DNA of 24,740 bases. Origin: a virus (Duplodnaviria; Heunggongvirae; Uroviricota; Caudoviricetes). Below, piece by piece: positions 4,202-21,644 of this stretch. The position numbers and the translations under genes were made by a program. The notes under the pieces were generated by a model, which did not search any database, was not told the origin of the DNA, and worked only from the letters and a program-made list of their open reading frames with translations. The stretch is taken from IMG/VR virus record IMGVR_UViG_648276671_000014; one strand, given 5' to 3'. Position 1 is the first letter of the stretch. Each line of letters starts with the position of its first letter.

Positions 4202-5055
4202 GCACCATCCTGAAATGGGCGGGAAATAAAACCGCCATTATGTCCGAACTGAAAAAACACCTTCCTGCTGGCCCGCGACTGGTTGAACCTTTCGCGGGTT
4301 CCTGTGCTGTGATGATGGCGACGGATTACCCCAGCTATCTGGTTGCTGATATTAATCCTGATTTAATCAACCTCTATAAAAAGATTGCCGCTGATTGCGA
4401 AGCGTTTATATCTCGTGCCAGAGCTTTATTTGAGGAAGCAAACAGGGAGGTGGCTTATTACAACATAAGGCAGGAGTTTAACTGCTCAACTGAAATTACT
4501 GACTTCATGAAAGCAGTATATTTCCTGTATCTCAATCGTCACGGTTACCGTGGGTTATGTCGCTATAACAAGAGCGGGCATTTCAACATTCCCTACGGTA
4601 ATTATAAAAATCCGTATTTCCCTGAAAAAGAAATTCGCGCATTTGCAGAGAAAGCCCAGCGAGCAACGTTTATCTGCGCCAGCTTTGATGAAACGCTGGC
4701 GATGCTGCAGGTGGGGGATGTGGTGTATTGCGATCCGCCTTATGACGGTACGTTTTCCGGCTATCACACTGACGGCTTCACTGAAGATGACCAGTATCAC
4801 CTGGCATCTGTTCTTGAATATCGATCATCAGAAGGTCATCCAGTCATTGTTTCTAACAGTGACACATCCCTGATCCGTTCGCTGTATCGAAATTTCACTC
4901 ACCACTACATCAAGGCAAAACGCAGCATCGGCGTGTCGGCTGGCGAGAGTAAATCTGCAACAGAAATCATTGCTGTTTCCGGGGCGCGCTGCTGGGTGGG
5001 ATTTGATCCTTCGTGTGGCGTGGATAGTTCTGCTGTGTACGAGGTGCGTATATGA
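4198..5055 (+). CDS. dam: DNA adenine methyltransferase (Dam/D12-class N6A MTase, 285 aa from [11 protein letters not shown]).
   Basis: Motif I (KWAGNK...EPFAGS) and motif IV (DPPY) of Dam-family MTases. GGAGG SD. The stop codon overlaps the A start. Confidence 0.85.
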
Positions 5056-7466
5056 GTCATGACGATATGAGCAACTCTAGCGGCTTTAACGAGGCCGCTG
5101 CAGCATTTTCATGGAACGGCCCGAAAAAGGCCATTAACCCTTATCTGGACCCGGCGGAAGTTGCGCCGGAGTCTGCACTTTCAAACCTGATCACTCTGTA
5201 CGCTGCCGATAATGAGCAGGAACAGCTGCGCCGCGATGCACTGAGTGAGCAGGTCTGGGAGCGTTATTTCTTTAATGAATCTCGTGATCCTGTCCAGCGC
5301 GAAATGGAGCAGGATAAGCTCATTAGCCGGGCAAAGCTGGCGCATGAACAGCAGCGTTTTAACCCGGACATGGTCATTCTGGCGGACGTCAGCGCCCAGC
5401 CCACCCATATTAGCAAGCCGCTGATGCAACGTATCGAATACTTCAGCAGCCTGGGCAGGCCAAAGGCTTATTCCCGCTATTTGCGTGAGACGATTAAGCC
5501 ATGTCTGGAGCGACTGGATTGTGTACGTGACAGTCAGCTGTCTGCTTCTTTCCGTTTTATGGCAAGCCATCAAGGGCTGGAGGGCCTGCTGATCCTGCCT
5601 GAAATGAGTCAGGATCAGGTGAAACGCCTGTCCACCCTGGTAGCTGCGCATATGAGCATGTGCCTTGATGCAGCTTGTGGCGATTTGTATGCCACCGATG
5701 ACGTTAAGCCAGAAGAAATCCGCAAGACATGGGAAAAGGTGGCGGCGGAAACCCTGCGTCTGGATGTCATCCCACCTGCGTTTGAGCAACTCCGTCGGAA
5801 AAGAAACCGCCGTAAACCCGTGCCCTATGAACTCATTCCGGGTTCGCTGGCGCGTATGTTGTGCGCCGACTGGTGGTATCGGAAATTATGGAAGATGCGT
5901 TGCGAATGGCGGGAAGAGCAGTTGCGTGCTGTCTGCCTGGTCAGCAAAAAAGCATCTCCCTATGTCAGCTATGAAGCCGTGATGCATAAACGTGAGCAGC
6001 GCCGTAAGTCGCTGGAGTTTTTCCGTTCTCATGAACTGGTGAACGAAGACGGCGACACGCTGGACATGGAGGATGTGGTAAACGCCAGCAGCAGCAACCC
6101 TGCGCATCGCCGCAATGAGATGATGGCCTGTGTTAAAGGTCTGGAGCTTATCGCGGAAATGCGCGGTGACTGCGCCGTTTTCTACACTATCACCTGTCCG
6201 TCACGTTTCCATTCCACGCTCAACAACGGCAGACCCAACCCAACCTGGACAAATGCGACGGTAAGACAAAGCAGCGATTATCTGGTCGGCATGTTTGCTG
6301 CATTTCGTAAGGCAATGCACAAAACCGGGTTGCGCTGGTATGGCGTACGGGTGGCTGAGCCGCACCATGACGGTACTGTGCACTGGCATCTCATGTGCTT
6401 CATGCGTAAAAAAGACCGCCGCGCCATCACTGCATTACTGCGTAAGTTTGCCATCCGTGTAGACCGCGAGGAGCTGGGCAACAATACGGGGCCACGCTTT
6501 AAGTCTGAGCTGATTAACCCGCGCAAAGGAACACCGACAAGCTACATCGCGAAATACATCAGTAAGAACATTGACGGGCGTGGTCTGGCTGGCGAGATCA
6601 GCAAGGAAACGGGTAAATCCCTGCGTGATAACGCCGAATACGTCAATGCCTGGGCGTCTCTGCATCGTGTTCAGCAGTTCCGCTTCTTTGGTATTCCGGG
6701 ACGTCAGGCTTACCGTGAACTTCGCTTGCTGGCTGGTCAGGCGGCAAGGCAACAGGGTGACAAAAAAGCAGGTGCGCCGATACTGGATGACCCGCGCCTT
6801 GATGCCATCCTGGCTGCTGCTGATGCTGGTTGTTTTGCCACCTACATCATGAAGCAGGGCGGCGTACTGGTTCCCCGTAAATATCACCTTATCAGAACCG
6901 CTTATGAAATCAACGAAGAGCCGACCGCCTATGGCGATCACGGCATTCGTATTTATGGCATCTGGTCACCCATTGCAGAGGGCAAGATCTGCACTCATGC
7001 AGTGAAGTGGAAAATGGTTCGTAAGGCCGTTGACGTTCAGGAGGCGGTAGCCGACCAGGGCGCTTGCGCCCCTTGGACTCGTGGCAATAACTGTCCCCTT
7101 GCTGAAAATTTGAACCAACAAGGGAAAGACAAATCAGCTGATGGGGATACCAGGACGGACATTACCCGCATGGATGACAAGGAGTTGCACGATTACCTGC
7201 ACAGTATGAGCAAAAAAGAGCGCCGGGAACTGGCTGCAAGGTTACGCCTGGTGAAACCGAAACGGCGTAAAGACTACAAACAGCGAATTACAGACCATCA
7301 GCGACAGCGGCTCGTCTATGAACTGAAGTCCAGAGGATTTGATGGCAGCGAGAAAGAGGTCGATTTACTCCTTCGCGGCGGCAGTATTCCGTCAGGAGCA
7401 GGCCTGCGTATCTTCTATCGGAACCAGCGTTTGCAGGAAGATGATAAGTGGCGAAACCTGTATTAA
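5052..7466 (+). CDS. A: Replication initiation protein A (rolling-circle nicking endonuclease, 804 aa).
   Basis: Size and position match P2/186 gpA. The [11 protein letters not shown]-type motif and catalytic Tyr-containing region are present. Confidence 0.9.
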
Positions 7467-7558
7467 TTACGCGGGTTAACAATTCGTGCTCTTAATAATA
7501 CCAGGCATATCAGGCTGATGAACGTAAAAAAACGTTTTACATCAGTAAGATTATTATA

Positions 7559-7578
7559 TACTGTAAATATAAACAGTG
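7559..7578 (+). promoter_or_regulatory. LexA (SOS) box TACTGTAAATATAAACAGTG. It overlaps a candidate promoter (TTTACA 7536-7541, -10 around 7557-7564).
   Basis: Perfect CTGT-N8-ACAG with an AT-rich centre, read directly. Positioned like the LexA-controlled p95/tum promoter of phage 186. Confidence 0.65.
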
Positions 7579-7619
7579 GTTATACATACAGTATCGCTTG
7601 TGGTGTCATAGGAGGAAAG

Positions 7620-7808
7620 ATGCAGGACTATTTTTTGGAGTCTTTGAAGCTCCAGCGCATTGATTTTTTTCTTAAGCTTGTAGCGGCTAGTGAGTGTAGT
7701 GATGAAGAGAAGGGGCTGGCTTTGCAGTGGGTTTCTGAACTGACAGATGAACTCATGGCAAAAATCAGAACCCACGAATACAACCGCTCAATGGATGTCA
7801 TCAGCTGA
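7620..7808 (+). CDS. Small protein (62 aa) downstream of the LexA box. Possible N-terminal Tum-like antirepressor part.
   Basis: GGAGGA SD 5 nt before the ATG at 7620. First gene after the SOS box. Confidence 0.5.
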   Translation: MQDYFLESLKLQRIDFFLKLVAASECSDEEKGLALQWVSELTDELMAKIRTHEYNRSMDVIS

Positions 7809-7818
7809 GGTGACTTTT

Positions 7819-8052
7819 ATGCGCATTGAAATAATGATCGATAAAGAGCAGAAGATTAGCCAGTCTACCCTGGACGCCCTTGAATCCGAGCTTTACCGCA
7901 ATCTGCGCCCCCTATATCCAAAAACGGTAATTCGCATCCGCAAAGGTAGCTCTAACGGTGTGGAACTGACTGGACTGCAACTGGACGAAGAAAGGAAGCA
8001 AGTGATGAAAATTATGCAGAAGGTGTGGGAAGACGACAGCTGGCTGCATTAA
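7819..8052 (+). CDS. DinI-family protein (77 aa).
   Basis: Clear similarity to E. coli DinI recalled from memory (MRIE..DAL..EL...W..D.W). GAGGTG SD. Preferred over the 101-aa track ORF from 7747. Confidence 0.7.
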   Translation: MRIEIMIDKEQKISQSTLDALESELYRNLRPLYPKTVIRIRKGSSNGVELTGLQLDEERKQVMKIMQKVWEDDSWLH

Positions 8053-8322
8053 GAAACGTTGCTGGCGTCTGAACTTGCTTCTGGCGTCAGCAAGGTTGAA
8101 CAACGAGCTATGCGAGGCGTTAGTGTCAATTTGTTACCTTAACCACTATATATGCCAGGAAATTAACAGTTCTTAAGAAACCGCTTGCATGATCGAGCGC
8201 ATTGAACTTAAGTTTAAGTAACGAAATCAACAGATGATATTGTTGTCTAAATTTTAAAGATAATCTGTTGAGGTTGTAGGCGTCGGAGTGTAGACTTCCG
8301 CGCCATGTGAAAAGGGGGAGTT

Positions 8323-8538
8323 ATGTCAAGCATCGCCGCATTTAGCCTGGGTAACCCAGTTGAACGTCTGGCAAGGGTTCTTAAAGAGAACCAGGACAAA
8401 CTCAATCTTAGTAAAGATGGTTTTGTGTCCGTAGACTTGTCTAACAAAAGAGCAATGGATGCCATCAAGGCACAGATGGATAAGCTTGAAGGCATCAAAA
8501 CGAGCACTGTAAAAGAGAAAACTAATAGAACCAGATAA
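8323..8538 (+). CDS. Hypothetical small soluble protein (71 aa). First gene of a cargo operon.
   Basis: GGGGGAG SD 4 nt before the ATG. Its stop is coupled to the next start (TAATG). Confidence 0.55.
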   Translation: MSSIAAFSLGNPVERLARVLKENQDKLNLSKDGFVSVDLSNKRAMDAIKAQMDKLEGIKTSTVKEKTNRTR

Positions 8539-8738
8539 TGGCAACATTACTTTTAGCAGTGATTTTGGTTAGTGGTTTTATTTATGTAAACCTATCACTT
8601 TCAACAAGATACCGATATAAGCGTTCCAACGGCTGGGACGCTTATTTTTTGTGGCTGCCTGGGGTATCGTTTTTTTCTCCTTGGCGGTTTTTTCACCTTT
8701 ATTTTGAACGTCAGCGGAGGGTTTCGTTGGCTGGCTAA
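8538..8738 (+). CDS. Small membrane protein (66 aa, N-terminal TM helix). Possibly the N-terminal part of a larger frameshifted gene.
   Basis: Translational coupling (TAATG) with the upstream gene. Hydrophobic N-terminus LLLAVILVSGFIYV. Confidence 0.45.
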   Translation: MATLLLAVILVSGFIYVNLSLSTRYRYKRSNGWDAYFLWLPGVSFFSPWRFFHLYFERQRRVSLAG

Positions 8739-8772
8739 TGCCTTGAATCTAACACCTGACAGTTTTAATGGC

Positions 8773-9378
8773 ATGTTGTCTTCATCGAAAGACAAACTTC
8801 AAAGAATAAATGAAATCAAACAGATAGCATGGGTTATGATTTCAATTGTTCTCGCTGCGATTTCAGGTTTTGGAAATAAGTTACGCACATCACGTGGAGA
8901 TCGTCGCTGGGATGCCTTAGCTAAAGCTGTGGGTAATAACGCTTTCGAATCATTACTCATGGAAGCGTCCGCAAGACAGTTTCCGATCATAGCAACTCTG
9001 TCGTCTCGCAAAATCTATGTTGGTCTTGTTACTTGTCCGGCGTTAGAAAACGGGCTTTCAGAACACCTTGAACTTCTCCCGATGTTAAGCGGATATCGGG
9101 ATAAAGATGATCTAACGATTAGTATCACGACTAACTATCACCAACATTATCTTGATAGTGGTGTGATAAGTGGAATGTCTCGGCTTAATATCGAAGATTT
9201 CCGTGTGCTCATACCAAAAGATGAGGTTGAAACAATTTCGTTTTTTGATACTGAGACATATAACAAATTTAAAGAAAATGAAGCCAGGGATAGAAAGAAC
9301 TGTCGAAAGATTGGTAGTAAAAGTGCATCTTCGCGCAGCAAGCGTGCAGCAGATGCTGAGTCAAATGATCGTGCATGA
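8773..9378 (+). CDS. Hypothetical membrane-anchored protein (202 aa from the first ATG). The reading frame is open from 8590 with no SD, so it may be fused to the previous ORF by a +1 shift in T-runs.
   Basis: Long open frame with a TM segment (IAWVMISIVLAAISGF). Followed by a rho-independent terminator. AT-rich cargo. Confidence 0.45.
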   Translation: MLSSSKDKLQRINEIKQIAWVMISIVLAAISGFGNKLRTSRGDRRWDALAKAVGNNAFESLLMEASARQFPIIATLSSRKIYVGLVTCPALENGLSEHLELLPMLSGYRDKDDLTISITTNYHQHYLDSGVISGMSRLNIEDFRVLIPKDEVETISFFDTETYNKFKENEARDRKNCRKIGSKSASSRSKRAADAESNDRA

Positions 9379-9426
9379 CTATGCTGCATGAGATCGCATG
9401 ATCGTTTGAGGATCGTTTTTGCTAAG

Positions 9427-9451
9427 GCCCGCCAGAACTGGCGGGCTTTTG
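9427..9451 (+). terminator. Rho-independent terminator (GCCCGCC-AGAACT-GGCGGGC-TTTTG).
   Basis: Perfect 7-bp GC stem plus a T-run, read directly. Confidence 0.7.
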
Positions 9452-9496
9452 CGTAGATCATGCACCTGCATGAAAACTACTACATAAAGCGGGCAG

Positions 9497-9515
9497 GCGT
9501 GGCGGGGATACGAGT
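9497..9515. other. cos: cos-like site (GGCGTGGCGGGGATACGAG).
   Basis: Its first 13 nt match the 19-nt cohesive-end sequences of 186 and P2 (GGCGTGGCGGGGAAAGCAT and GGCGAGGCGGGGAAAGCAC, both recalled from memory). It sits between the A-side cargo and Q as in P2. Confidence 0.45.
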
Positions 9516-9697
9516 GCGCGTAATAACTAATATTCCTATTGACTTTCTATGATGCAATAGCTAATTTATTTCTAGGCCTATAGTTTAATTTGGGAAAACG
9601 GCGGAGTATGATTTAGGTTATATATCCGTCATACCGGTTCGATTCCGGTTAGGCAAAGAGCATTTTAGAGTGTTCTTTGCCTAACAGGATACGTAAA

Positions 9698-10447
9698 ATG
9701 ACTGATGACGAGATTAAAAATATTTTCCATGCTCAAACTGATAATGTTAGAGAGCTTGAGAAAGTCTGGAAACAAATAGTCAAAGAAATTAATACTGCAT
9801 TACGAACAGATAATGCAGTCCAAGTTGCACTTAAAACCAAAATGCTAGGTTTGGTTTTTTGCGCTCTTGCCGAAGCTCAATTTTCAAAGTTGATCCACAC
9901 GCCCGGTCAATTTTCCCCTAATGAAATAGAACAGATTAAATATGCAGCTTCATCTAATGTCTCAGATGGATGGTTAAAGTGCATAAATTTGGCTACGAGA
10001 CGACTATCGAAAGGCACAAAGCATAATCATGTTCCTAATGTTATTCAGGAGCTTGAAAGACTAGTTGATGATTTTATAAAAGCGCCAAGTTTAATTAGAA
10101 ATAAAATTGCGCATGGACAATGGGTTGTCGCTCTTAATAGAAAGAATACACATGTGAACTCAGAAATGACACATACTTTGCGTAATTTGACAATAGTGGA
10201 ATTAACAAAGTTTAAAGATGCTTTCACGAGAATGTCGCGAATAGTCGAAGATATTATTAAATCTCCTAATAAAGCTCATTTGCGTGATTATTGGCCGCAG
10301 CTTGAAGAGTTTAGAGCAAAGCAAAAGGAAATGGATAGTTGGACTCTTGCTGAAAAAGTCTTCCAATTAAAAAAGAAATATAATTACTCATCTAATATGA
10401 GATGTGAATCATGCGGTCAGTTACATGTTGATAGAAATAAACAATGA
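9698..10447 (+). CDS. HEPN-like protein with an RNKIAHG (Rx4HG) motif, 249 aa. Candidate abortive-infection or toxin RNase.
   Basis: AT-rich gene between cos and Q. ATG at 9698 (the track ORF starts at a TTG at 9677). The Rx4-6H motif followed by G is characteristic of HEPN nucleases. Confidence 0.55.
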   Translation: MTDDEIKNIFHAQTDNVRELEKVWKQIVKEINTALRTDNAVQVALKTKMLGLVFCALAEAQFSKLIHTPGQFSPNEIEQIKYAASSNVSDGWLKCINLATRRLSKGTKHNHVPNVIQELERLVDDFIKAPSLIRNKIAHGQWVVALNRKNTHVNSEMTHTLRNLTIVELTKFKDAFTRMSRIVEDIIKSPNKAHLRDYWPQLEEFRAKQKEMDSWTLAEKVFQLKKKYNYSSNMRCESCGQLHVDRNKQ

Positions 10448-10537
10448 TGATTATTATTTTGTGACACTTTCAATATTTTAATGCTTTATATATTAGCAAT
10501 GGTCATTAACATGACCATTGCTATGTGACCTAATATA

Positions 10538-11581
10538 TTAGTTATCTTCTGTCCTGAGCGAGTAAAAGCTAAAACGGAGAATTTCTTCACCAAGCCAGTT
10601 ATTTAGTTCCTGTAAACGTTTCTGCAGTGACATTAGTTCATTGCGTACAAAAACGCGACTAGCTTTCTCCACATCCCCAAATCCCCCAACATTATTTGGC
10701 ATTATCCCCATCATCTGTGGCGGCACGCGGTGCGCTGCCATCATGTCATCCCGACTCACGTTCTTGATATTAAGAAATTCATCCTTCGCCGCGACTTCTG
10801 ACAATGGGATGATCTGAAGCCCGTCCTTTTTGCCGTTAGGCGAGTACATAAACAGGTTGCGGAAGTTGCCTGGACCTTTGGCGCTTTTCATCGCGTTGCG
10901 GAGGTTGTTCACATCTTCCTGGTTCTGCGCGGCATCGGTCATGTACATGATGAAGCCTGCATGGCTGCCGTTGATGTAATACTTACGGCGGAACAGCGTG
11001 GCAGACTCGTTGAGCAGGGCGGATGGAATGGCAGAAAGATAGCCGGGCAGGCCGTAGATCTCCTGGTTGATGTCCGGTTCCATCAGATGAAAAATGCTGC
11101 CTTTCGTGAACTGATACGGCTGGGTTGTCATACCGTATTGCACAAACCAGTAGGTATCCAGGTCTAACCCGCGTCGGGTGTATTTTGCCAGCGCAGGCTC
11201 AAGGGCGATAACTTCACCGAATCGGTTCGTGCGTTTCTCCAGGTAGGCGTTACCAAATACCAGATAGTCCTGCACAAAACGCGAAAAAGCCTGCTGGCTG
11301 AGCAGCGGATGAGGGATATAGGTACTGGTCAGAATGTTGCACTTTACTGCAATCGGGGAACTGTGATGCACGGCGGCGCGGAAGGTGCGCGCCAGTCCGT
11401 TAAAGCTGACGGGCGGCTCATACCAACGGTCCATCTGTACGCATTCCACATAGTCCAGCAGTTCACGGCGGTCCAGAACAGGAACGGGATCGCCGAAGCT
11501 GAATGCTTCGGCTGTAGTTTGACTTTTAAGCTGGATCTGTTTCGTCGCCGCAGCTCGGTTCTTCTTACTCTTTCCCATCAA
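10538..11581 (-). CDS. Q: Portal protein (gpQ-like, 347 aa).
   Basis: P2 gene order Q-P leftward, and size (P2 Q is 344 aa). Confidence 0.88.
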   Translation of the reverse strand: MMGKSKKNRAAATKQIQLKSQTTAEAFSFGDPVPVLDRRELLDYVECVQMDRWYEPPVSFNGLARTFRAAVHHSSPIAVKCNILTSTYIPHPLLSQQAFSRFVQDYLVFGNAYLEKRTNRFGEVIALEPALAKYTRRGLDLDTYWFVQYGMTTQPYQFTKGSIFHLMEPDINQEIYGLPGYLSAIPSALLNESATLFRRKYYINGSHAGFIMYMTDAAQNQEDVNNLRNAMKSAKGPGNFRNLFMYSPNGKKDGLQIIPLSEVAAKDEFLNIKNVSRDDMMAAHRVPPQMMGIMPNNVGGFGDVEKASRVFVRNELMSLQKRLQELNNWLGEEILRFSFYSLRTEDN

Positions 11582-18104: not shown

Positions 18105-18498
18105 AGCAGTGCCTTATGTCCGCAATAACCCGGACAAACTGCATCTGTTTGTGGATAACGGTTCGCTGGTTGCCACGGGGGCCAGCTCTATGTCGTGGGA
18201 GTACCGTTACACCCTGAACGCGGTGATTGAAGATTTCAGCGGCGACCAGAATCTGCTGATGGCCCCGGTTTTGCTGTGGCTGCGGGATAACCAGCCCGAT
18301 GCCATCAATAACCCGGCGTTACGGGAAAAGCTATTCACCTTTGAGGTGGATATTCTGCGCAACGATGTCTGTGATATCAGCCTTAACCTGCAACTGACGG
18401 AGCGTGTGCTGGTCAGCACTGACGGCAGTGTGTCGAACGTTGAAGCGGTAGCGGAACCTGATGAACCTGAAGAAATGTGGACGGTGAAACGTGGCTGA
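18067..18498 (+). CDS. R: Tail completion protein R (143 aa from the GTG at 18067; the track ORF starts at a TTG at 18046).
   Basis: Similarity to P2 gpR recalled from memory (KPDSLR/KPQSLR, FVDNGS, VLAWLRENQPD/VLLWLRDNQPD, LTERTLVS). Confidence 0.8.
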   Translation: MNKPQSLRHALNKAVPYVRNNPDKLHLFVDNGSLVATGASSMSWEYRYTLNAVIEDFSGDQNLLMAPVLLWLRDNQPDAINNPALREKLFTFEVDILRNDVCDISLNLQLTERVLVSTDGSVSNVEAVAEPDEPEEMWTVKRG

Positions 18499-18937
18499 AT
18501 TGCAGAAGGTGGACGACTGGCTGAGTGCCTTGCTGGTGAATCTGGAGCCAGCCGCAAGAAGCCGTATGATGCGCCAACTGGCGCAGGAACTGCGCAGGAC
18601 ACAACAGAAGAACATCAGGATGCAGCGCAATCCAGATGGCAGTAGTTATGAACCGCGACGGGTAACAGCACGCAGTAAAAAGGGGCGTATCAAACGTCAG
18701 ATGTTTGCAAAGCTGCGCACCACAAAATACCTGAAAACTGCCGCCAGCGCCGATTCTGCCAGCGTACAGTTTGAAGGTAAGGTACAGCGCATTGCCCGTG
18801 TTCACCATTACGGTCTGCGTGATCGCGTAAATAAAAAAGGTTTAATCGCGAAATATCCGCAACGTACTTTATTGGGCTTATCTTATAAAACAGAAGAAAA
18901 TATTATTATGAGCATAAAGGAGGAGCTATCAAAATAA
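18491..18937 (+). CDS. S: Tail completion protein S (148 aa, GTG start). The C-terminal ~35 aa is AT-rich and divergent.
   Basis: Position and size match P2 gpS (150 aa). The 3' end runs into the AT-rich insertion. Confidence 0.78.
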   Translation: MAELQKVDDWLSALLVNLEPAARSRMMRQLAQELRRTQQKNIRMQRNPDGSSYEPRRVTARSKKGRIKRQMFAKLRTTKYLKTAASADSASVQFEGKVQRIARVHHYGLRDRVNKKGLIAKYPQRTLLGLSYKTEENIIMSIKEELSK

Positions 18938-18978
18938 AGACGAGGAGGTTTAAATAACCCTCTCGTCTTTTGTTTTTA
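18938..18978 (+). terminator. Rho-independent terminator after S (AGACGAGgagg...ccCTCGTCT plus TTTGTTTTT).
   Basis: Stem-loop plus T-tract, read directly. Confidence 0.5.
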
Positions 18979-19203
18979 TCCATAAGCCAGCTCCTGTGGA
19001 GATGGCGATTGATTAGCTGTTCATGTAAGAGTTAAATAGAGCTGAGATTTTTTGTGTATCCGTAACTGGATCAGTCGATGAGCCTTGTCTGATATAAAAC
19101 ATATTCTCAAAGTCGCAAATTTGACCTGTGCTCTGAATAGTTATCTTGAGTATGTGTAAGCCATTGTAAGAGCAAAACTCAATATTCTTAAGTATCTGCT
19201 GTT

Positions 19204-20787
19204 TTAGAGTTTCAGTGAAATCGTATCCTTGTATTTTTGTTTTATTAACATAAAGTAATCATCAATGCTACCAGAGACTAACATTGCTTCATGATCAATT
19301 CCGTTTATATAGAACCCATTGAACTCAATTGAATTTACTCCATATAAATGTTGAATTCTATCTGCGGTTAATTTATTTTCGGCAATACCAACTAAAATAT
19401 AGCCTTTTGCGCTTTTTCCAATATTATTTATTGCTACGCAAGTTTGTAATATTCCTTTTAAACATTCATCATCAAATTCATTTTTACCTGATAAATTAAA
19501 GAACCCCTGTTTGAAATCATAACTTGGTTGTTCAGTTCTAGAATTTGTTAATAGATTGCGAATTTCAGTTACCCAAGCATGATTCACATACTTTTGAGGA
19601 GCAGGTTGGAAGTAGCGACTTATTAATGCAACAAGATCATTAACACTTTTTTCACGAGTGCTTGCAGCCCAGCGGCCACCATCGGTAACCATAATTATGG
19701 TATTGCCAGTGTTTTTTAATTGCGAGAATAAACCTTCTTTATCAATTAATTGCATATTTTGGTTGAAAAGAAGTTCATAAATAGACAAAAACACAGCTTG
19801 ATAATAACGAGGGCATTCTTGAGATGAATTATCCTCCCCTAAAATATGGCTTCTAAAAGTATCATTTTTTCCGTCATATAGGCTTGTAATTAATTCATAT
19901 ACAGCTATGAAATTCTGCTTAATAGTGGCAGCGTTATTGGTTTGAATGAAAGACTCTAATTGCTGTCTGACACCATGAGCATGAGAGGAGTTTCCTTGAC
20001 CATAGAATGTGTCGAGAGAAGTTGACCCAGATGTGGGTTTTTCTTCTAGACTGATATATGCAAGGATATTGGCTATCAATTCCTCGTCATCAGAATCACG
20101 AATACTTCGTCTTGTTAAAATATGATGTTTTATATAAAAGTGGTTATCGATATTTACCCCGTACTCCAATCTATCGTTACTGATTGAAATTTTGTGCATT
20201 TGCTGGAGATTCATAATGTCAGAATGGCTAGTATCACCTCTGATCGATGTTGATATCGATCTGACCAGTTCAGAGAAGTTACTAACTGTTCCTGCACTAC
20301 GTAATTCTTGTTTGGATAAAATCTTCCCGTTTGAGTTTATTCGTCTGAATACTTCGTCAATATTTTCATTTGTGGAGCTATATTCTGATATTGCAAATCG
20401 ATAACGTGCAATAATTGCTGAAGAATCACGGGAAAGAATTGGTTCTTTCTGAATTAAAGTTCCATTATCTTTAAGTTGTTTTGTTAAAGCTATAGAGTCC
20501 AAATCAAAATATTGTCCATCTAATGAAAATCTCTGTTCGATGAAGCTCATAATTGCTTCTAATCTTTGCATTCCATCCAATATTTCTCTTTGTTCATTGA
20601 TGGTAACAAATAATAATAACGGAATAGGATATTGTTGCAGCATAGAAGATATTAAAGAAGTCTTTTCTTCTAGAGACCATACAAGTTTCCTTTGATAACG
20701 TCTATTGACTATCAAATTTCCTTGCAAATACCATTCGTATAATTGCTCGGTAGTCCTTGAGTCAATATCAAGATTTTCATTTGGCAT
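19204..20787 (-). CDS. DUF262-domain protein (ParB/Srx-like, DGQQR-type motif ILDGMQRLEAI; GmrSD N-terminal family), 527 aa. Candidate anti-phage or type IV restriction-like function.
   Basis: Markedly AT-rich insertion between S and V. AAGGAG SD 8 nt before the ATG at 20787 (the track ORF starts 13 codons earlier). N-terminal motifs NRRYQRKLVW, YPIPLLLF and DGMQRL are typical of DUF262. No HNH/DUF1524 motif is recognisable in the C-terminus. Confidence 0.78.
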   Translation of the reverse strand: MPNENLDIDSRTTEQLYEWYLQGNLIVNRRYQRKLVWSLEEKTSLISSMLQQYPIPLLLFVTINEQREILDGMQRLEAIMSFIEQRFSLDGQYFDLDSIALTKQLKDNGTLIQKEPILSRDSSAIIARYRFAISEYSSTNENIDEVFRRINSNGKILSKQELRSAGTVSNFSELVRSISTSIRGDTSHSDIMNLQQMHKISISNDRLEYGVNIDNHFYIKHHILTRRSIRDSDDEELIANILAYISLEEKPTSGSTSLDTFYGQGNSSHAHGVRQQLESFIQTNNAATIKQNFIAVYELITSLYDGKNDTFRSHILGEDNSSQECPRYYQAVFLSIYELLFNQNMQLIDKEGLFSQLKNTGNTIIMVTDGGRWAASTREKSVNDLVALISRYFQPAPQKYVNHAWVTEIRNLLTNSRTEQPSYDFKQGFFNLSGKNEFDDECLKGILQTCVAINNIGKSAKGYILVGIAENKLTADRIQHLYGVNSIEFNGFYINGIDHEAMLVSGSIDDYFMLIKQKYKDTISLKL

Positions 20788-21001
20788 AATTTTTCTCCTT
20801 GTTAGATTGAACTTATATATTGTCAATAAACATCTTTTGTGTCAAAGATTACATAGTAACTGCCTAAATTAATTGGCTTTTAATAATTAAAGACGTAGCT
20901 TTCAAGTGCTTTTTTAAGAGCATTGAACTTCTTAACTTGCGCAACGTCATTCGACCTTTTGCAACGTATTAATGCTCTAACGCAGACCATTGAAAGGCAT
21001 T

Positions 21002-21019
21002 TGTTCTATGTCTAATACA
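21002..21019 (+). promoter_or_regulatory. TGT-N12-ACA late-activator site of the V late promoter (PV).
   Basis: TGTtctatgtctaatACA, centred ~55 bp upstream of the V start, read directly. Confidence 0.55.
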
Positions 21020-21065
21020 ATAACAAAGGCTGTCTACTGCTTGCTATTGATGGCAACCTTTCCCT

Positions 21066-21644
21066 ATGAACGCACAATTAACCGAAATCATGCGCCTTAT
21101 CACCAACCTGATCCGCACTGGTGTAGTCACCGAAGTGGACCGGGAGAATTGGCTTTGCCGGGTGAAAACGGGCGACCTTGAAACTAACTGGATCAGTTGG
21201 CTGACGCTGCGCGCGGGTAATGCCCGGACATGGTGGCGACCATCGGAAGGTGAGCAGGTGGTGCTGCTGAGTCTGGGCGGAAATCTGGAAACCGCCTTTG
21301 CGTTGCCCGCCATCTATTCGAATCAGTTCGCTCCACCGTCGACATCAGCGGATGCCTGCGTGACAGAGCATCCTGACGGCGGCTGGTTTGAATATGAACC
21401 CGCCACCGGGCGCTGGTTTGTCAGGGGCATCAAATCAATGGTCATTGAGACCGCTGACAATATCACCCTGAAAACCAGTGAGTTTGTGCTGGAGGCTGAC
21501 CGCACGCGTATTAACAGCGAAGTATTGATCAATGGTGGCGTTACCCAGGGCGGCGGTGCGATGAGTTCTAACGGGATCGTGGTTGATGCGCATCAGCATA
21601 CTGGCGTCCTGAAAGGCGGCGATACAACCGGAGGCCCGGTATGA
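21066..21644 (+). CDS. V: Baseplate spike/assembly protein V (192 aa).
   Basis: P2 gene order S-V-W-J-I-H. Size is close to P2 gpV. Confidence 0.85.
   Translation: MNAQLTEIMRLITNLIRTGVVTEVDRENWLCRVKTGDLETNWISWLTLRAGNARTWWRPSEGEQVVLLSLGGNLETAFALPAIYSNQFAPPSTSADACVTEHPDGGWFEYEPATGRWFVRGIKSMVIETADNITLKTSEFVLEADRTRINSEVLINGGVTQGGGAMSSNGIVVDAHQHTGVLKGGDTTGGPV

What the first reader, a model, noticed from the sequence alone, without database searches (positions are those of the whole stretch)
18938..21065. AT-rich single-gene insertion between tail genes S and V encoding a DUF262 (GmrSD N-domain-like) protein
The conserved P2 S-V junction is interrupted by ~2 kb of AT-rich DNA, much lower in GC than the flanking late genes. 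It carries one leftward gene (19204-20787) with its own SD and upstream AT-rich region. The protein has DUF262 motifs (NRRYQRKLVW, YPIPLLLF, ILDGMQRLEAI) but no recognisable HNH/DUF1524 C-terminal nuclease, so it is not a canonical GmrSD/BrxU. The insertion sits exactly between the S terminator (18938-18978) and the intact PV activator site (21002-21019), so late tail expression is preserved. Opposite orientation to the late operon plus foreign composition is the usual signature of a prophage-carried defence or exclusion moron. The C-terminal ~250 aa could be a new effector domain.
Basis: partly seen in the sequence, partly recalled or inferred. Interest (0 to 1): 0.72.

Follow-up and report, generated by a model that had tools for sequence, protein, structure and literature searches.

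The report
Truncated DUF262–Schlafen prophage defence gene
An AT-rich cassette at a known cargo site between two tail genes of a P2-like prophage carries a recently described kind of anti-phage gene (a DUF262 sensor fused to a Schlafen nuclease). This copy has lost its last 73 residues to a one-base deletion, so it is an ordinary and probably disabled member of a known family.

Summary
The AT-rich block between P2 genes S and V is real (30-36% GC against 55-60% in the flanks). Its leftward ORF has a solid DUF262/GmrSD_N domain. The "unknown C-terminal half" is not new. Every homologue is about 591 aa and has three parts: ParB-like DUF262, a helical NsnA/SspE-like middle domain, and a C-terminal Schlafen/AlbA_2 nuclease with an invariant E-x4-D-x-K motif. 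This is the "pSlfn7" architecture. One E. coli member, EcoSlfn7, was shown in 2026 to protect against T7 and other phages.

The window's copy has a 1-bp deletion in an A6 run. That shifts the frame after K518 and removes about 40% of the Schlafen domain, including an invariant arginine. The same allele occurs in another prophage backbone, so the deletion is inherited and not a read error.

The site is the classical P2 orf30 locus. Of 79 related viral contigs, 29 are empty and 50 carry about 19 different AT-rich cargo families, nearly all leftward. Seven of ten cargo families tested match known or candidate defence families. The variable segment begins inside S (about 18821) and includes the PV promoter.

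Verdict: a new, probably inactive member of a known kind. Interest is low to moderate.

The parts
18821..18937 (+). AT-rich 3' end of gene S (last ~37 codons) that travels with the cassette
   Evidence: Identity to the empty-site S gene of phage 500465-1 falls from 27-30 of 30 to 10-16 of 30 per 30-nt block from 18821 onward. E. coli C21, which has the same cassette, has the same S tail. Cartapus and Kp4865-2, which have other cargo, have other tails.
18931..18978 (.). Bidirectional intrinsic terminator between the S stop and the stop of the intact leftward gene
   Evidence: Folds at -18.7 kcal/mol (z -5.3) on the + strand and -18.0 (z -3.05) on the - strand, with T-runs after the stem in both directions. 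P2 has an annotated terminator at the equivalent position.
19013..19203 (-). Out-of-frame remnant encoding residues ~528-591 of the intact protein (end of the Schlafen domain)
   Evidence: The alternative frame reads ...KIQGYDFTETLKQQ...YIRQGSSTDPV...SYMNS* with no stop. Restoring one A gives a 591-aa protein that differs from P0001 at 3 residues.
19204..20787 (-). Frameshifted ORF as it stands: 518 native residues plus 9 aberrant ones (527 aa)
   Evidence: The exact protein is WP_042900211.1 / MGR3881421.1.
19234..19238 (-). A5 run (A6 in intact alleles): the site of the 1-bp deletion
   Evidence: Alignment to E. coli C21. All 26 uninterrupted near-identical E. coli copies are 1 bp longer than the query.
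19234..19533 (-). Retained N-terminal ~100 residues of the Schlafen/AlbA_2 domain. Includes the catalytic motif E419 (19531-19533), D424 (19516-19518) and K426 (19510-19512).
   Evidence: In the intact protein, Pfam SLFN_AlbA_2 spans aa 419-575. E419, D424 and K426 are invariant in 50 homologues. Coordinates.
19558..20280 (-). Helical middle domain (aa ~170-410), NsnA-C / SspE-M / GmrSD-M ('ParBDB')-like
20293..20712 (-). ParB-like DUF262 (GmrSD_N) domain, aa 26-165. Includes NRRYQRK (aa 28-34) and DGMQR (aa 71-75, nt 20563-20577).
   Evidence: Pfam E=1.3e-17. N28, R29, Y31, Q32, R33, D71, G72, Q74 and R75 are invariant.
20795..20800 (-). Shine-Dalgarno AAGGAG, 7 nt before the ATG
   Evidence: Read directly from the sequence.
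20817..20845 (-). Candidate sigma-70 promoter of the cargo gene: TTGACA, 17 nt, CAATAT
   Evidence: Relaxed consensus scan, 9 of 12 matches with a perfect -35. The stricter scan did not list it. This is a prediction only.
21002..21019 (+). TGT-N12-ACA dyad (Ogr-type activator site of the PV late promoter)
   Evidence: Present exactly 64 nt before the V ATG in the window, C21, 500465-1, Cartapus and Kp4865-2, although the surrounding sequence differs. P2 annotates an activator site in the same relative position.
21047..21065 (+). Right-hand point where similarity to empty-site relatives resumes (TGATGGCAACCTTTCCCT, then the V ATG)
   Evidence: Direct comparison of junction sequences.

Best explanation
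This is a cargo cassette at the P2 orf30 site (the S-V junction). It encodes a single-protein anti-phage system of the DUF262-Schlafen class (pSlfn7).

Shown: the intact 591-aa protein has three parts. They are an N-terminal ParB-like DUF262 NTP-binding domain, a helical NsnA-C/SspE-M-like domain, and a C-terminal Schlafen/AlbA_2 nuclease domain with an invariant E-x4-D-x-K motif.

Inferred, by analogy with SspE/GmrSD/BrxU for the sensor and with RorSlfn5/SLFN11 for the effector:
- The gene is transcribed leftward from its own promoter in the lysogen.
- The DUF262 and helical module senses an infecting phage's DNA or a nucleotide cue.
- It then licenses the Schlafen domain to cut tRNA (or another nucleic acid), which lowers the competitor's yield.
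- Late tail expression is preserved because the cassette brings a terminator after S and a correctly spaced PV activator site.

Shown: in this window a 1-bp deletion shifts the frame after K518. This removes residues 519-591: one helix, four strands and the terminal helix of the Schlafen fold, and the invariant R567 in YIRQG.

Inferred: this copy is most likely a loss-of-function allele.
For: Architecture:
- Pfam GmrSD_N at E=1.7e-17, and SLFN_AlbA_2 at 27.6 bits (cutoff 25.3), on the 100%-identical intact form P0001.
- About 120 listed homologues are 585-610 aa with 97-100% coverage.
- E419/D424/K426, D71/G72/Q74/R75 and R567 are invariant in 50 homologues down to 37% identity.
- AF2 model: pLDDT 88.7, pTM 0.84.

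Function of the class:
- EcoSlfn7 (a DUF262-Slfn fusion) under its native promoter reduced plating of a broad range of phages, T7 by 538-fold. pSlfn5 cleaves tRNA anticodon arms through the Ex4(E/D)xK site (PMC13056530).

Single-gene module:
- Distant homologues have no conserved neighbour.

Cargo status:
- Relatives have an empty site.
- 50 of 79 IMG/VR P2-like contigs carry about 19 different AT-rich cargo families at this site. Seven of ten representatives hit PADLOC families: AbiU, AriA/GajA-like, PD-DExK/NucC-like, and PDC-S15, S49 and S59.
- The same family sits in the S-V site in Enterobacter and in the gpA-gpQ hotspot in Serratia and Pantoea P2-like prophages.
- P2 itself has the layout S, terminator, leftward Orf30, PV site, V.

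Frameshift:
- Located.
- Absent from all 28 complete E. coli genomes that carry the cassette and from the 4 IMG/VR copies.
- Present, with 3 shared SNPs, in a second prophage backbone.
Against: - No experiment has been done on this allele or on its intact parent.
- I could not obtain the sequence of EcoSlfn7, so its identity to this protein is unknown. It could be the ~68%-identical IncF-plasmid paralogue.
- The same study tested other Schlafen systems that gave no protection in E. coli.
- The trigger and the substrate of DUF262-Slfn proteins have not been determined.
- The truncated protein keeps the whole sensor and the catalytic motif, so residual or altered activity is not excluded.
- The allele has persisted in two backbones without further decay, although little time may have passed.
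Confidence: 0.75

Rival explanations
1. The frameshifted allele is still functional. One route is that the 527-aa protein retains activity, since its sensor and catalytic E-x4-D-x-K motif are intact. The other is that a low-level -1 ribosomal slip of tRNA-Lys on CAA-AAA-U restores the exact wild-type reading frame (K-I-Q-G-Y...). Either would make this a down-tuned gene and not a dead one.
For: - The sequence CAAAAAUAC allows P-site re-pairing at -1. The next codon is then AUA, which reproduces the intact protein sequence (inference).
- The downstream frame has no stop or other lesion.
- The allele is shared by descent in two different prophage backbones.
Against: - No canonical X-XXY-YYZ heptamer or stimulatory structure was looked for or found, and unstimulated slippage is usually about 1% or less.
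- The lost segment holds 4 of the domain's beta-strands and the invariant R567, with near-invariant Y541 and G569. A folded nuclease is therefore unlikely.
- The apparent absence of amino-acid changes between the two backbones is an ascertainment artefact, because the look-up is by exact protein.
- Other copies are plainly inactivated by IS1.
Confidence: 0.17
2. It is a GmrSD/BrxU/SspE-type Type IV restriction enzyme that cuts modified phage DNA, as the RefSeq product name 'GmrSD restriction endonuclease domain-containing protein' suggests.
For: - DUF262 domain at E=1e-17.
- RefSeq naming.
Against: - No DUF1524/HNH domain appears at any threshold.
- The C-terminus is a Schlafen/AlbA_2 fold.
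- The tested class member acts best on T7, whose DNA is unmodified (PMC13056530; the point about T7 DNA is from general knowledge).
Confidence: 0.04
3. It is an orphan sensor subunit of a multi-gene system (Menshen NsnA or PD-T4-2_A) and needs partners encoded elsewhere.
For: PADLOC NsnA at E=3e-23 over aa 9-348, and PD-T4-2_A at E=1e-17.
Against: - The neighbours are S and V. There is no NsnB ABC-ATPase and no NsnC.
- The protein carries its own effector domain.
- Distant homologues have no conserved partner.
Confidence: 0.02
4. It has a non-defence role for the phage or host. Examples are a ParB-like partition or silencing factor, or an AlbA-family DNA-binding regulator.
For: - ParB-fold N-domain.
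- Many bacterial AlbA_2 proteins are annotated as regulators.
- 30% of prokaryotic Schlafen genes are not near known defence genes (PMC13056530).
Against: - The gene is dispensable, since close relatives have an empty site.
- It occupies two different defence hotspots of P2-like phages.
- The catalytic nuclease motif is invariant.
- A class member defends experimentally.
Confidence: 0.03

Closest known systems
EcoSlfn7 / pSlfn7 class (DUF262-Schlafen fusions; Perez Taboada et al., Nat Microbiol 2026, PMC13056530)
   Same: Same two Pfam domains in the same order (PF03235 and PF04326), the same Ex4(E/D)xK motif, a single-gene system in Enterobacterales, and expression from its own promoter.
   Different: The sequence relationship to EcoSlfn7 is unknown, because the supplementary tables are not held. 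UC4224 is not among the 28 complete E. coli genomes that carry this cassette. This copy is truncated after residue 518. The paper does not mention the P2 S-V location.
RorSlfn5 and human SLFN11/13/14, SAMD9 (Schlafen/AlbA_2 tRNases)
   Different: The sensor is a ParB-like DUF262 plus a helical domain. It is not an Ig-like domain (pSlfn5) or a helicase (SLFN11). The nuclease is at the C-terminus. Substrate and trigger are untested.
GmrSD / BrxU / SspE (DUF262-DUF1524 Type IV restriction and PT-sensing nickases)
   Same: N-terminal DUF262 with QR and DGxQR motifs, followed by a helical DNA-binding region. A single polypeptide combines sensor and nuclease.
   Different: The effector is Schlafen/AlbA_2, not the DUF1524 His-Me (HNH) nuclease. 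There is no evidence of specificity for modified DNA.
Menshen NsnA (Millman 2022; PMC12065111) and PD-T4-2_A
   Same: The best PADLOC matches. They share the ParB-DUF262 and ParBDB-like module.
   Different: Those are subunits of multi-gene systems (NsnB ATPase and NsnC effector). Here the effector is fused and no partners are present.
P2 orf30 locus and the P2 old/tin and Z/fun moron sites
   Same: Identical layout to P2: S, terminator, leftward nonessential AT-rich gene, PV activator site, V. The orf30 locus is a recognised site of horizontally acquired genes (PMC3091744, PMC6823313).
   Different: The cargo is unrelated to P2 Orf30. Recent hotspot papers stress the gpA-gpQ and Z/fun sites and mention the tail-gene sites only in general terms.

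Membership tests
pSlfn7 (DUF262-Schlafen single-protein defence) | N-terminal DUF262/GmrSD_N domain (PF03235) above the Pfam threshold | tested here: met
   65 bits against a cutoff of 33.2 on the window protein.
pSlfn7 (DUF262-Schlafen single-protein defence) | Schlafen/AlbA_2 domain (PF04326) in the same polypeptide | tested here: inconclusive
   The intact allele P0001 scores 27.6 bits against a cutoff of 25.3 over aa 419-575. The window copy reaches only 15.3 bits (E=0.029), because the domain is cut at residue 518. So the gene lineage meets the criterion but the encoded product does not.
pSlfn7 (DUF262-Schlafen single-protein defence) | Catalytic Ex4(E/D)xK motif | tested here: met
   EQPSYDFK at aa 419-426, retained in the window copy and invariant in 50 homologues.
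pSlfn7 (DUF262-Schlafen single-protein defence) | Schlafen C-lobe-like fold | tested here: met
pSlfn7 (DUF262-Schlafen single-protein defence) | Protection against phage; nuclease-dependent | not testable with these tools
   Known only for EcoSlfn7 (PMC13056530).
GmrSD / BrxU / SspE | C-terminal DUF1524 (HNH/His-Me) nuclease | tested here: not met
   No Pfam or NCBIfam match at E<=1. The C-terminus is AlbA_2.
GmrSD / BrxU / SspE | DUF262 NTPase domain with a DGxQR motif | tested here: met
   DGMQR at aa 71-75. BrxU matches at E=4e-5 by profile search.
Menshen (NsnABC) | NsnA-like gene followed by an NsnB ABC-ATPase and an NsnC effector | tested here: not met
   The flanking genes are S and V. 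There is no such pair in any homologue context examined.
P2 orf30-site cargo (moron) | Lies between S and V, is absent from close relatives, has foreign composition, and leaves the late-operon signals intact | tested here: met
Mobile element inserted by transposition or site-specific recombination | Flanking direct or inverted repeats, or a recombinase | tested here: not met
   Only short repeats of the kind expected by chance. No recombinase is present. The boundaries lie inside S and the PV region, which fits homologous exchange between P2-like phages.

The most novel reading that the evidence does not exclude
The A6/A5 run may be a natural on/off or dimmer switch for a costly nuclease. The frameshifted allele is inherited and has moved between prophage backbones. 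It could be maintained because it yields a trace of full-length protein by -1 slippage, or because it yields a sensor-only protein with its own activity (for example dominant-negative or DNA-binding). That would be a form of phase-variable prophage defence.
Probability: 0.08. Interest if true: 0.5.

Novelty: new member of a known kind. Interest (0 to 1): 0.27.

Why it matters
The significance is modest.
- It places the recently validated DUF262-Schlafen defence family as regular cargo of P2-like prophages. The family occupies both the S-V (orf30) site and the gpA-gpQ hotspot.
- It shows that the little-discussed S-V site is a true defence hotspot, with at least 19 cargo families in 79 contigs.
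- The naturally truncated allele and its intact twin (99.6% identical) form a ready-made pair for testing whether the C-terminal half of the Schlafen fold is needed.
- How a ParB-like DUF262 sensor switches on a Schlafen nuclease is still open. This family is a compact single-protein model for that question.

Tried and rejected
- NCBIfam gave no match.
- PHROGs gave only families of unknown function.
- No phage record in INPHARED carries a full-length homologue by tblastn.
- Rfam found no RNA family in the S-V block.
- The repeat search found no target-site duplication or terminal repeats. The 22-nt, 77% inverted pair at 18812/20967 is taken as chance.
- The strict promoter scan found no leftward promoter upstream of the gene. 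A relaxed scan gave one candidate.
- I tried to get the EcoSlfn7 sequence or accession from the paper and preprint, but no supplementary files are held. A search for strain UC4224 gave only the assembly number GCA_025369975.1.
- P2 Orf30 is unrelated to this protein.
- I considered using the four synonymous differences between the window and L010 as evidence of purifying selection. I rejected this because L010 was found by exact protein identity, which is an ascertainment bias.
- A profile search of the PDB by sequence found only the BrxU DUF262 domain.

Full report
**Observation.** The window is a P2-like prophage. From left to right it holds an integrase, gpA (5052-7466), the portal gene (10538-11581, minus strand), capsid, lysis and tail genes. 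S is at 18491-18937 and V at 21066-21644. Between them GC drops to 0.30-0.36, against 0.53-0.60 on both sides. One leftward ORF runs from ATG 20787 to the stop at 19204 (527 aa), with AAGGAG 7 nt upstream. Pfam finds GmrSD_N/DUF262 at E=1.3e-17 and no HNH or DUF1524 domain.

**The gene is a frameshifted copy of a longer gene.** About 120 listed homologues are 585-610 aa long and cover 97-100% of the query. The best one (P0001) is 100% identical over 98% of the query but has 591 aa. Alignment to E. coli C21, which is 99.6% identical across the insert, shows one base missing from an A6 run, seen as T5 at 19234-19238 on the + strand.
- The frame shifts after K518, and nine aberrant residues follow.
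- The original frame stays open to a stop at 19013. Adding the base back gives a 591-aa protein with three substitutions relative to P0001.
- None of the 28 complete E. coli genomes that carry the cassette has the deletion. Two of them are disrupted by IS1 instead. None of the four IMG/VR copies has it either.
- The exact 527-aa protein is nevertheless on record (WP_042900211.1, MGR3881421.1). It occurs in a P2-like prophage whose flanks differ from the window at about 200 positions in 7.5 kb, while the cassette differs at only 13.
- The window and that locus share the deletion and three SNPs against C21. The deletion is therefore inherited and not a read error.

**What the protein is.** On the intact form, Pfam gives GmrSD_N (aa 26-165) and SLFN_AlbA_2 (aa 419-575) at 27.6 bits, above the 25.3 cutoff. 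The window copy reaches only E=0.029 for AlbA_2 because the domain is cut.
- PADLOC's best hits are Menshen NsnA (E=3e-23, aa 9-348) and PD-T4-2_A. The helical region after DUF262 is therefore the NsnA-C/SspE-M/GmrSD-M "ParBDB" type described in PMC12065111.
- In 50 homologues down to 37% identity, the DUF262 motifs (N28, R29, Y31, Q32, R33; D71, G72, Q74, R75) and the Schlafen motif (E419, D424, K426) are invariant. So is R567, in YIRQG.
- An AF2 model of the intact form is confident (pLDDT 88.7, pTM 0.84).
- The frameshift removes helix 526-535, strands 537-575, helix 578-590 and R567.

**What is known.** Perez Taboada et al. (Nat Microbiol 2026, PMC13056530) classified 5,930 prokaryotic Schlafen proteins. 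DUF262 fusions make up 1.8% of them. EcoSlfn7, from E. coli UC4224, reduced plating of many phages under its native promoter, T7 by 538-fold. Mechanism was worked out only for pSlfn5, in which a phage protein triggers cleavage of tRNA anticodon arms through the Ex4(E/D)xK site. I could not retrieve the EcoSlfn7 sequence. E. coli also has a 69%-identical (nucleotide) paralogue at about 850 plasmid locations, for example beside pemIK on an IncFII plasmid. That paralogue may be the one that was tested.

**The locus.** P2 itself has the layout S, terminator, leftward nonessential Orf30, PV activator site, V. The orf30 locus is one of three regions of P2 known to hold horizontally acquired genes (PMC3091744, PMC6823313).
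- Close relatives 500465-1 and KP12 have only 68 bp between S and V. Cartapus has a 176-aa leftward ORF there. Kp4865-2 has a 503-aa rightward P-loop protein.
- Among the 79 IMG/VR contigs with the most similar gpS that also retain V, 29 sites are empty and 50 are occupied. The occupied sites fall into 22 length classes and about 19 cargo families. All are 31-37% GC and nearly all point leftward.
- Seven of ten cargo representatives match PADLOC families: AbiU, AriA/AriAB/GajA-like, PD-DExK/NucC-like, and PDC-S15, S49 and S59.
- Homologues 89% identical sit in the same site in Enterobacter, and beside an S/R remnant in Cronobacter. Homologues 72% and 68% identical, in Serratia and Pantoea P2-like prophages, sit in the gpA-gpQ hotspot instead.
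- More distant homologues in Vibrio and Rivularia have no conserved neighbour.

**Boundaries.** Similarity to the empty-site S gene collapses from 18821, so the last ~37 codons of S are replaced by an AT-rich version. Each cargo type has its own S tail. Similarity resumes at 21047. The PV dyad TGT-N12-ACA differs in sequence between cassettes but always lies 64 nt before the V ATG. No terminal repeats or recombinase are present. Cassettes therefore most likely move by homologous exchange between P2-like phages. The hairpin at 18931-18978 can terminate transcription in both directions. A candidate promoter for the cargo gene is at 20845-20817.

**Mechanism.**
- Shown: the domain architecture, the conserved catalytic and NTP-binding motifs, the cargo status, and the truncation.
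- Inferred: the DUF262 and helical module senses phage DNA or a nucleotide signal, as in SspE, GmrSD and BrxU. It activates the Schlafen nuclease, which cuts tRNA as pSlfn5 and SLFN11 do.
- Inferred: the window allele is inactive because 40% of the nuclease fold is missing.
- Not excluded: a -1 slip of tRNA-Lys on CAA-AAA-U would recreate the wild-type frame exactly. This is speculative.

**Verdict.** This is a real cargo gene and a correct call as a defence moron. However, the "new effector" is a known Schlafen nuclease, the family and the insertion site are already described, and this copy is truncated.

Noticed in passing
window 9576-9654 (+), with ORF 9677-10447 (+): A tRNA-like element: Rfam tRNA at 30.7 bits (gathering threshold 29), with good acceptor, D and T arms but a 19-nt 'anticodon loop'. 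ARAGORN calls nothing. It lies directly upstream of a 256-aa ORF with no Pfam or PADLOC match (only phrog_12663, unknown function). Megablast finds 7470-9524 in many E. coli genomes, but finds 9525-10540 in none of 5,426 complete genomes.
   Followed up: partly
window 7470-10540: A second low-GC block (33-46%) lies in the classical gpA-gpQ (tin/old) hotspot. It holds a DinI-like gene (7747-8052) and a 224-aa ORF (8704-9378; phrog_3630, unknown function), plus the tRNA-like module described above. None matches a known defence family.
   Followed up: partly
L009 4836-6608 (E. coli plasmid pEC96-CTX-M-215) and about 850 plasmid locations: A paralogue of the DUF262-Schlafen gene, 69% identical at nucleotide level, is widespread on E. 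coli plasmids. On an IncFII plasmid it sits next to pemIK. N-terminally truncated forms are very common in the databases (P0068, 500 aa, 1,685 members; P0075, 336 aa, 1,100 members). This suggests frequent inactivation.
   Followed up: partly
window 18821-18937 and 21002-21046; L002, L003, L004: Each S-V cassette brings its own AT-rich version of the last ~37 codons of the tail-completion gene S and its own PV promoter sequence. The TGT-N12-ACA dyad stays fixed 64 nt before the V ATG. The C-terminal tail of gpS is therefore exchangeable.
   Followed up: yes
IMG/VR loci L021, L061, L081, L051, L097, L074, L032/L055, L048/L050: Several recurrent S-V cargo genes either gave no PADLOC match (L061, L081, L051) or were not scanned at all. 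Examples are a 189-aa protein in 9 contigs (L021), a 271-aa Cys-rich HNH-like protein (L061), 304-aa and 386-aa proteins, a 584-aa protein (L097), and small membrane proteins. These are candidate unknown defence or exclusion genes.
   Followed up: partly
E. coli CFSAN064035 (NZ_CP031134) and 22AR0322 (NZ_CP195467): In two complete genomes the same cassette is interrupted by IS1. This is a second, independent route of inactivation of this gene.
   Followed up: no
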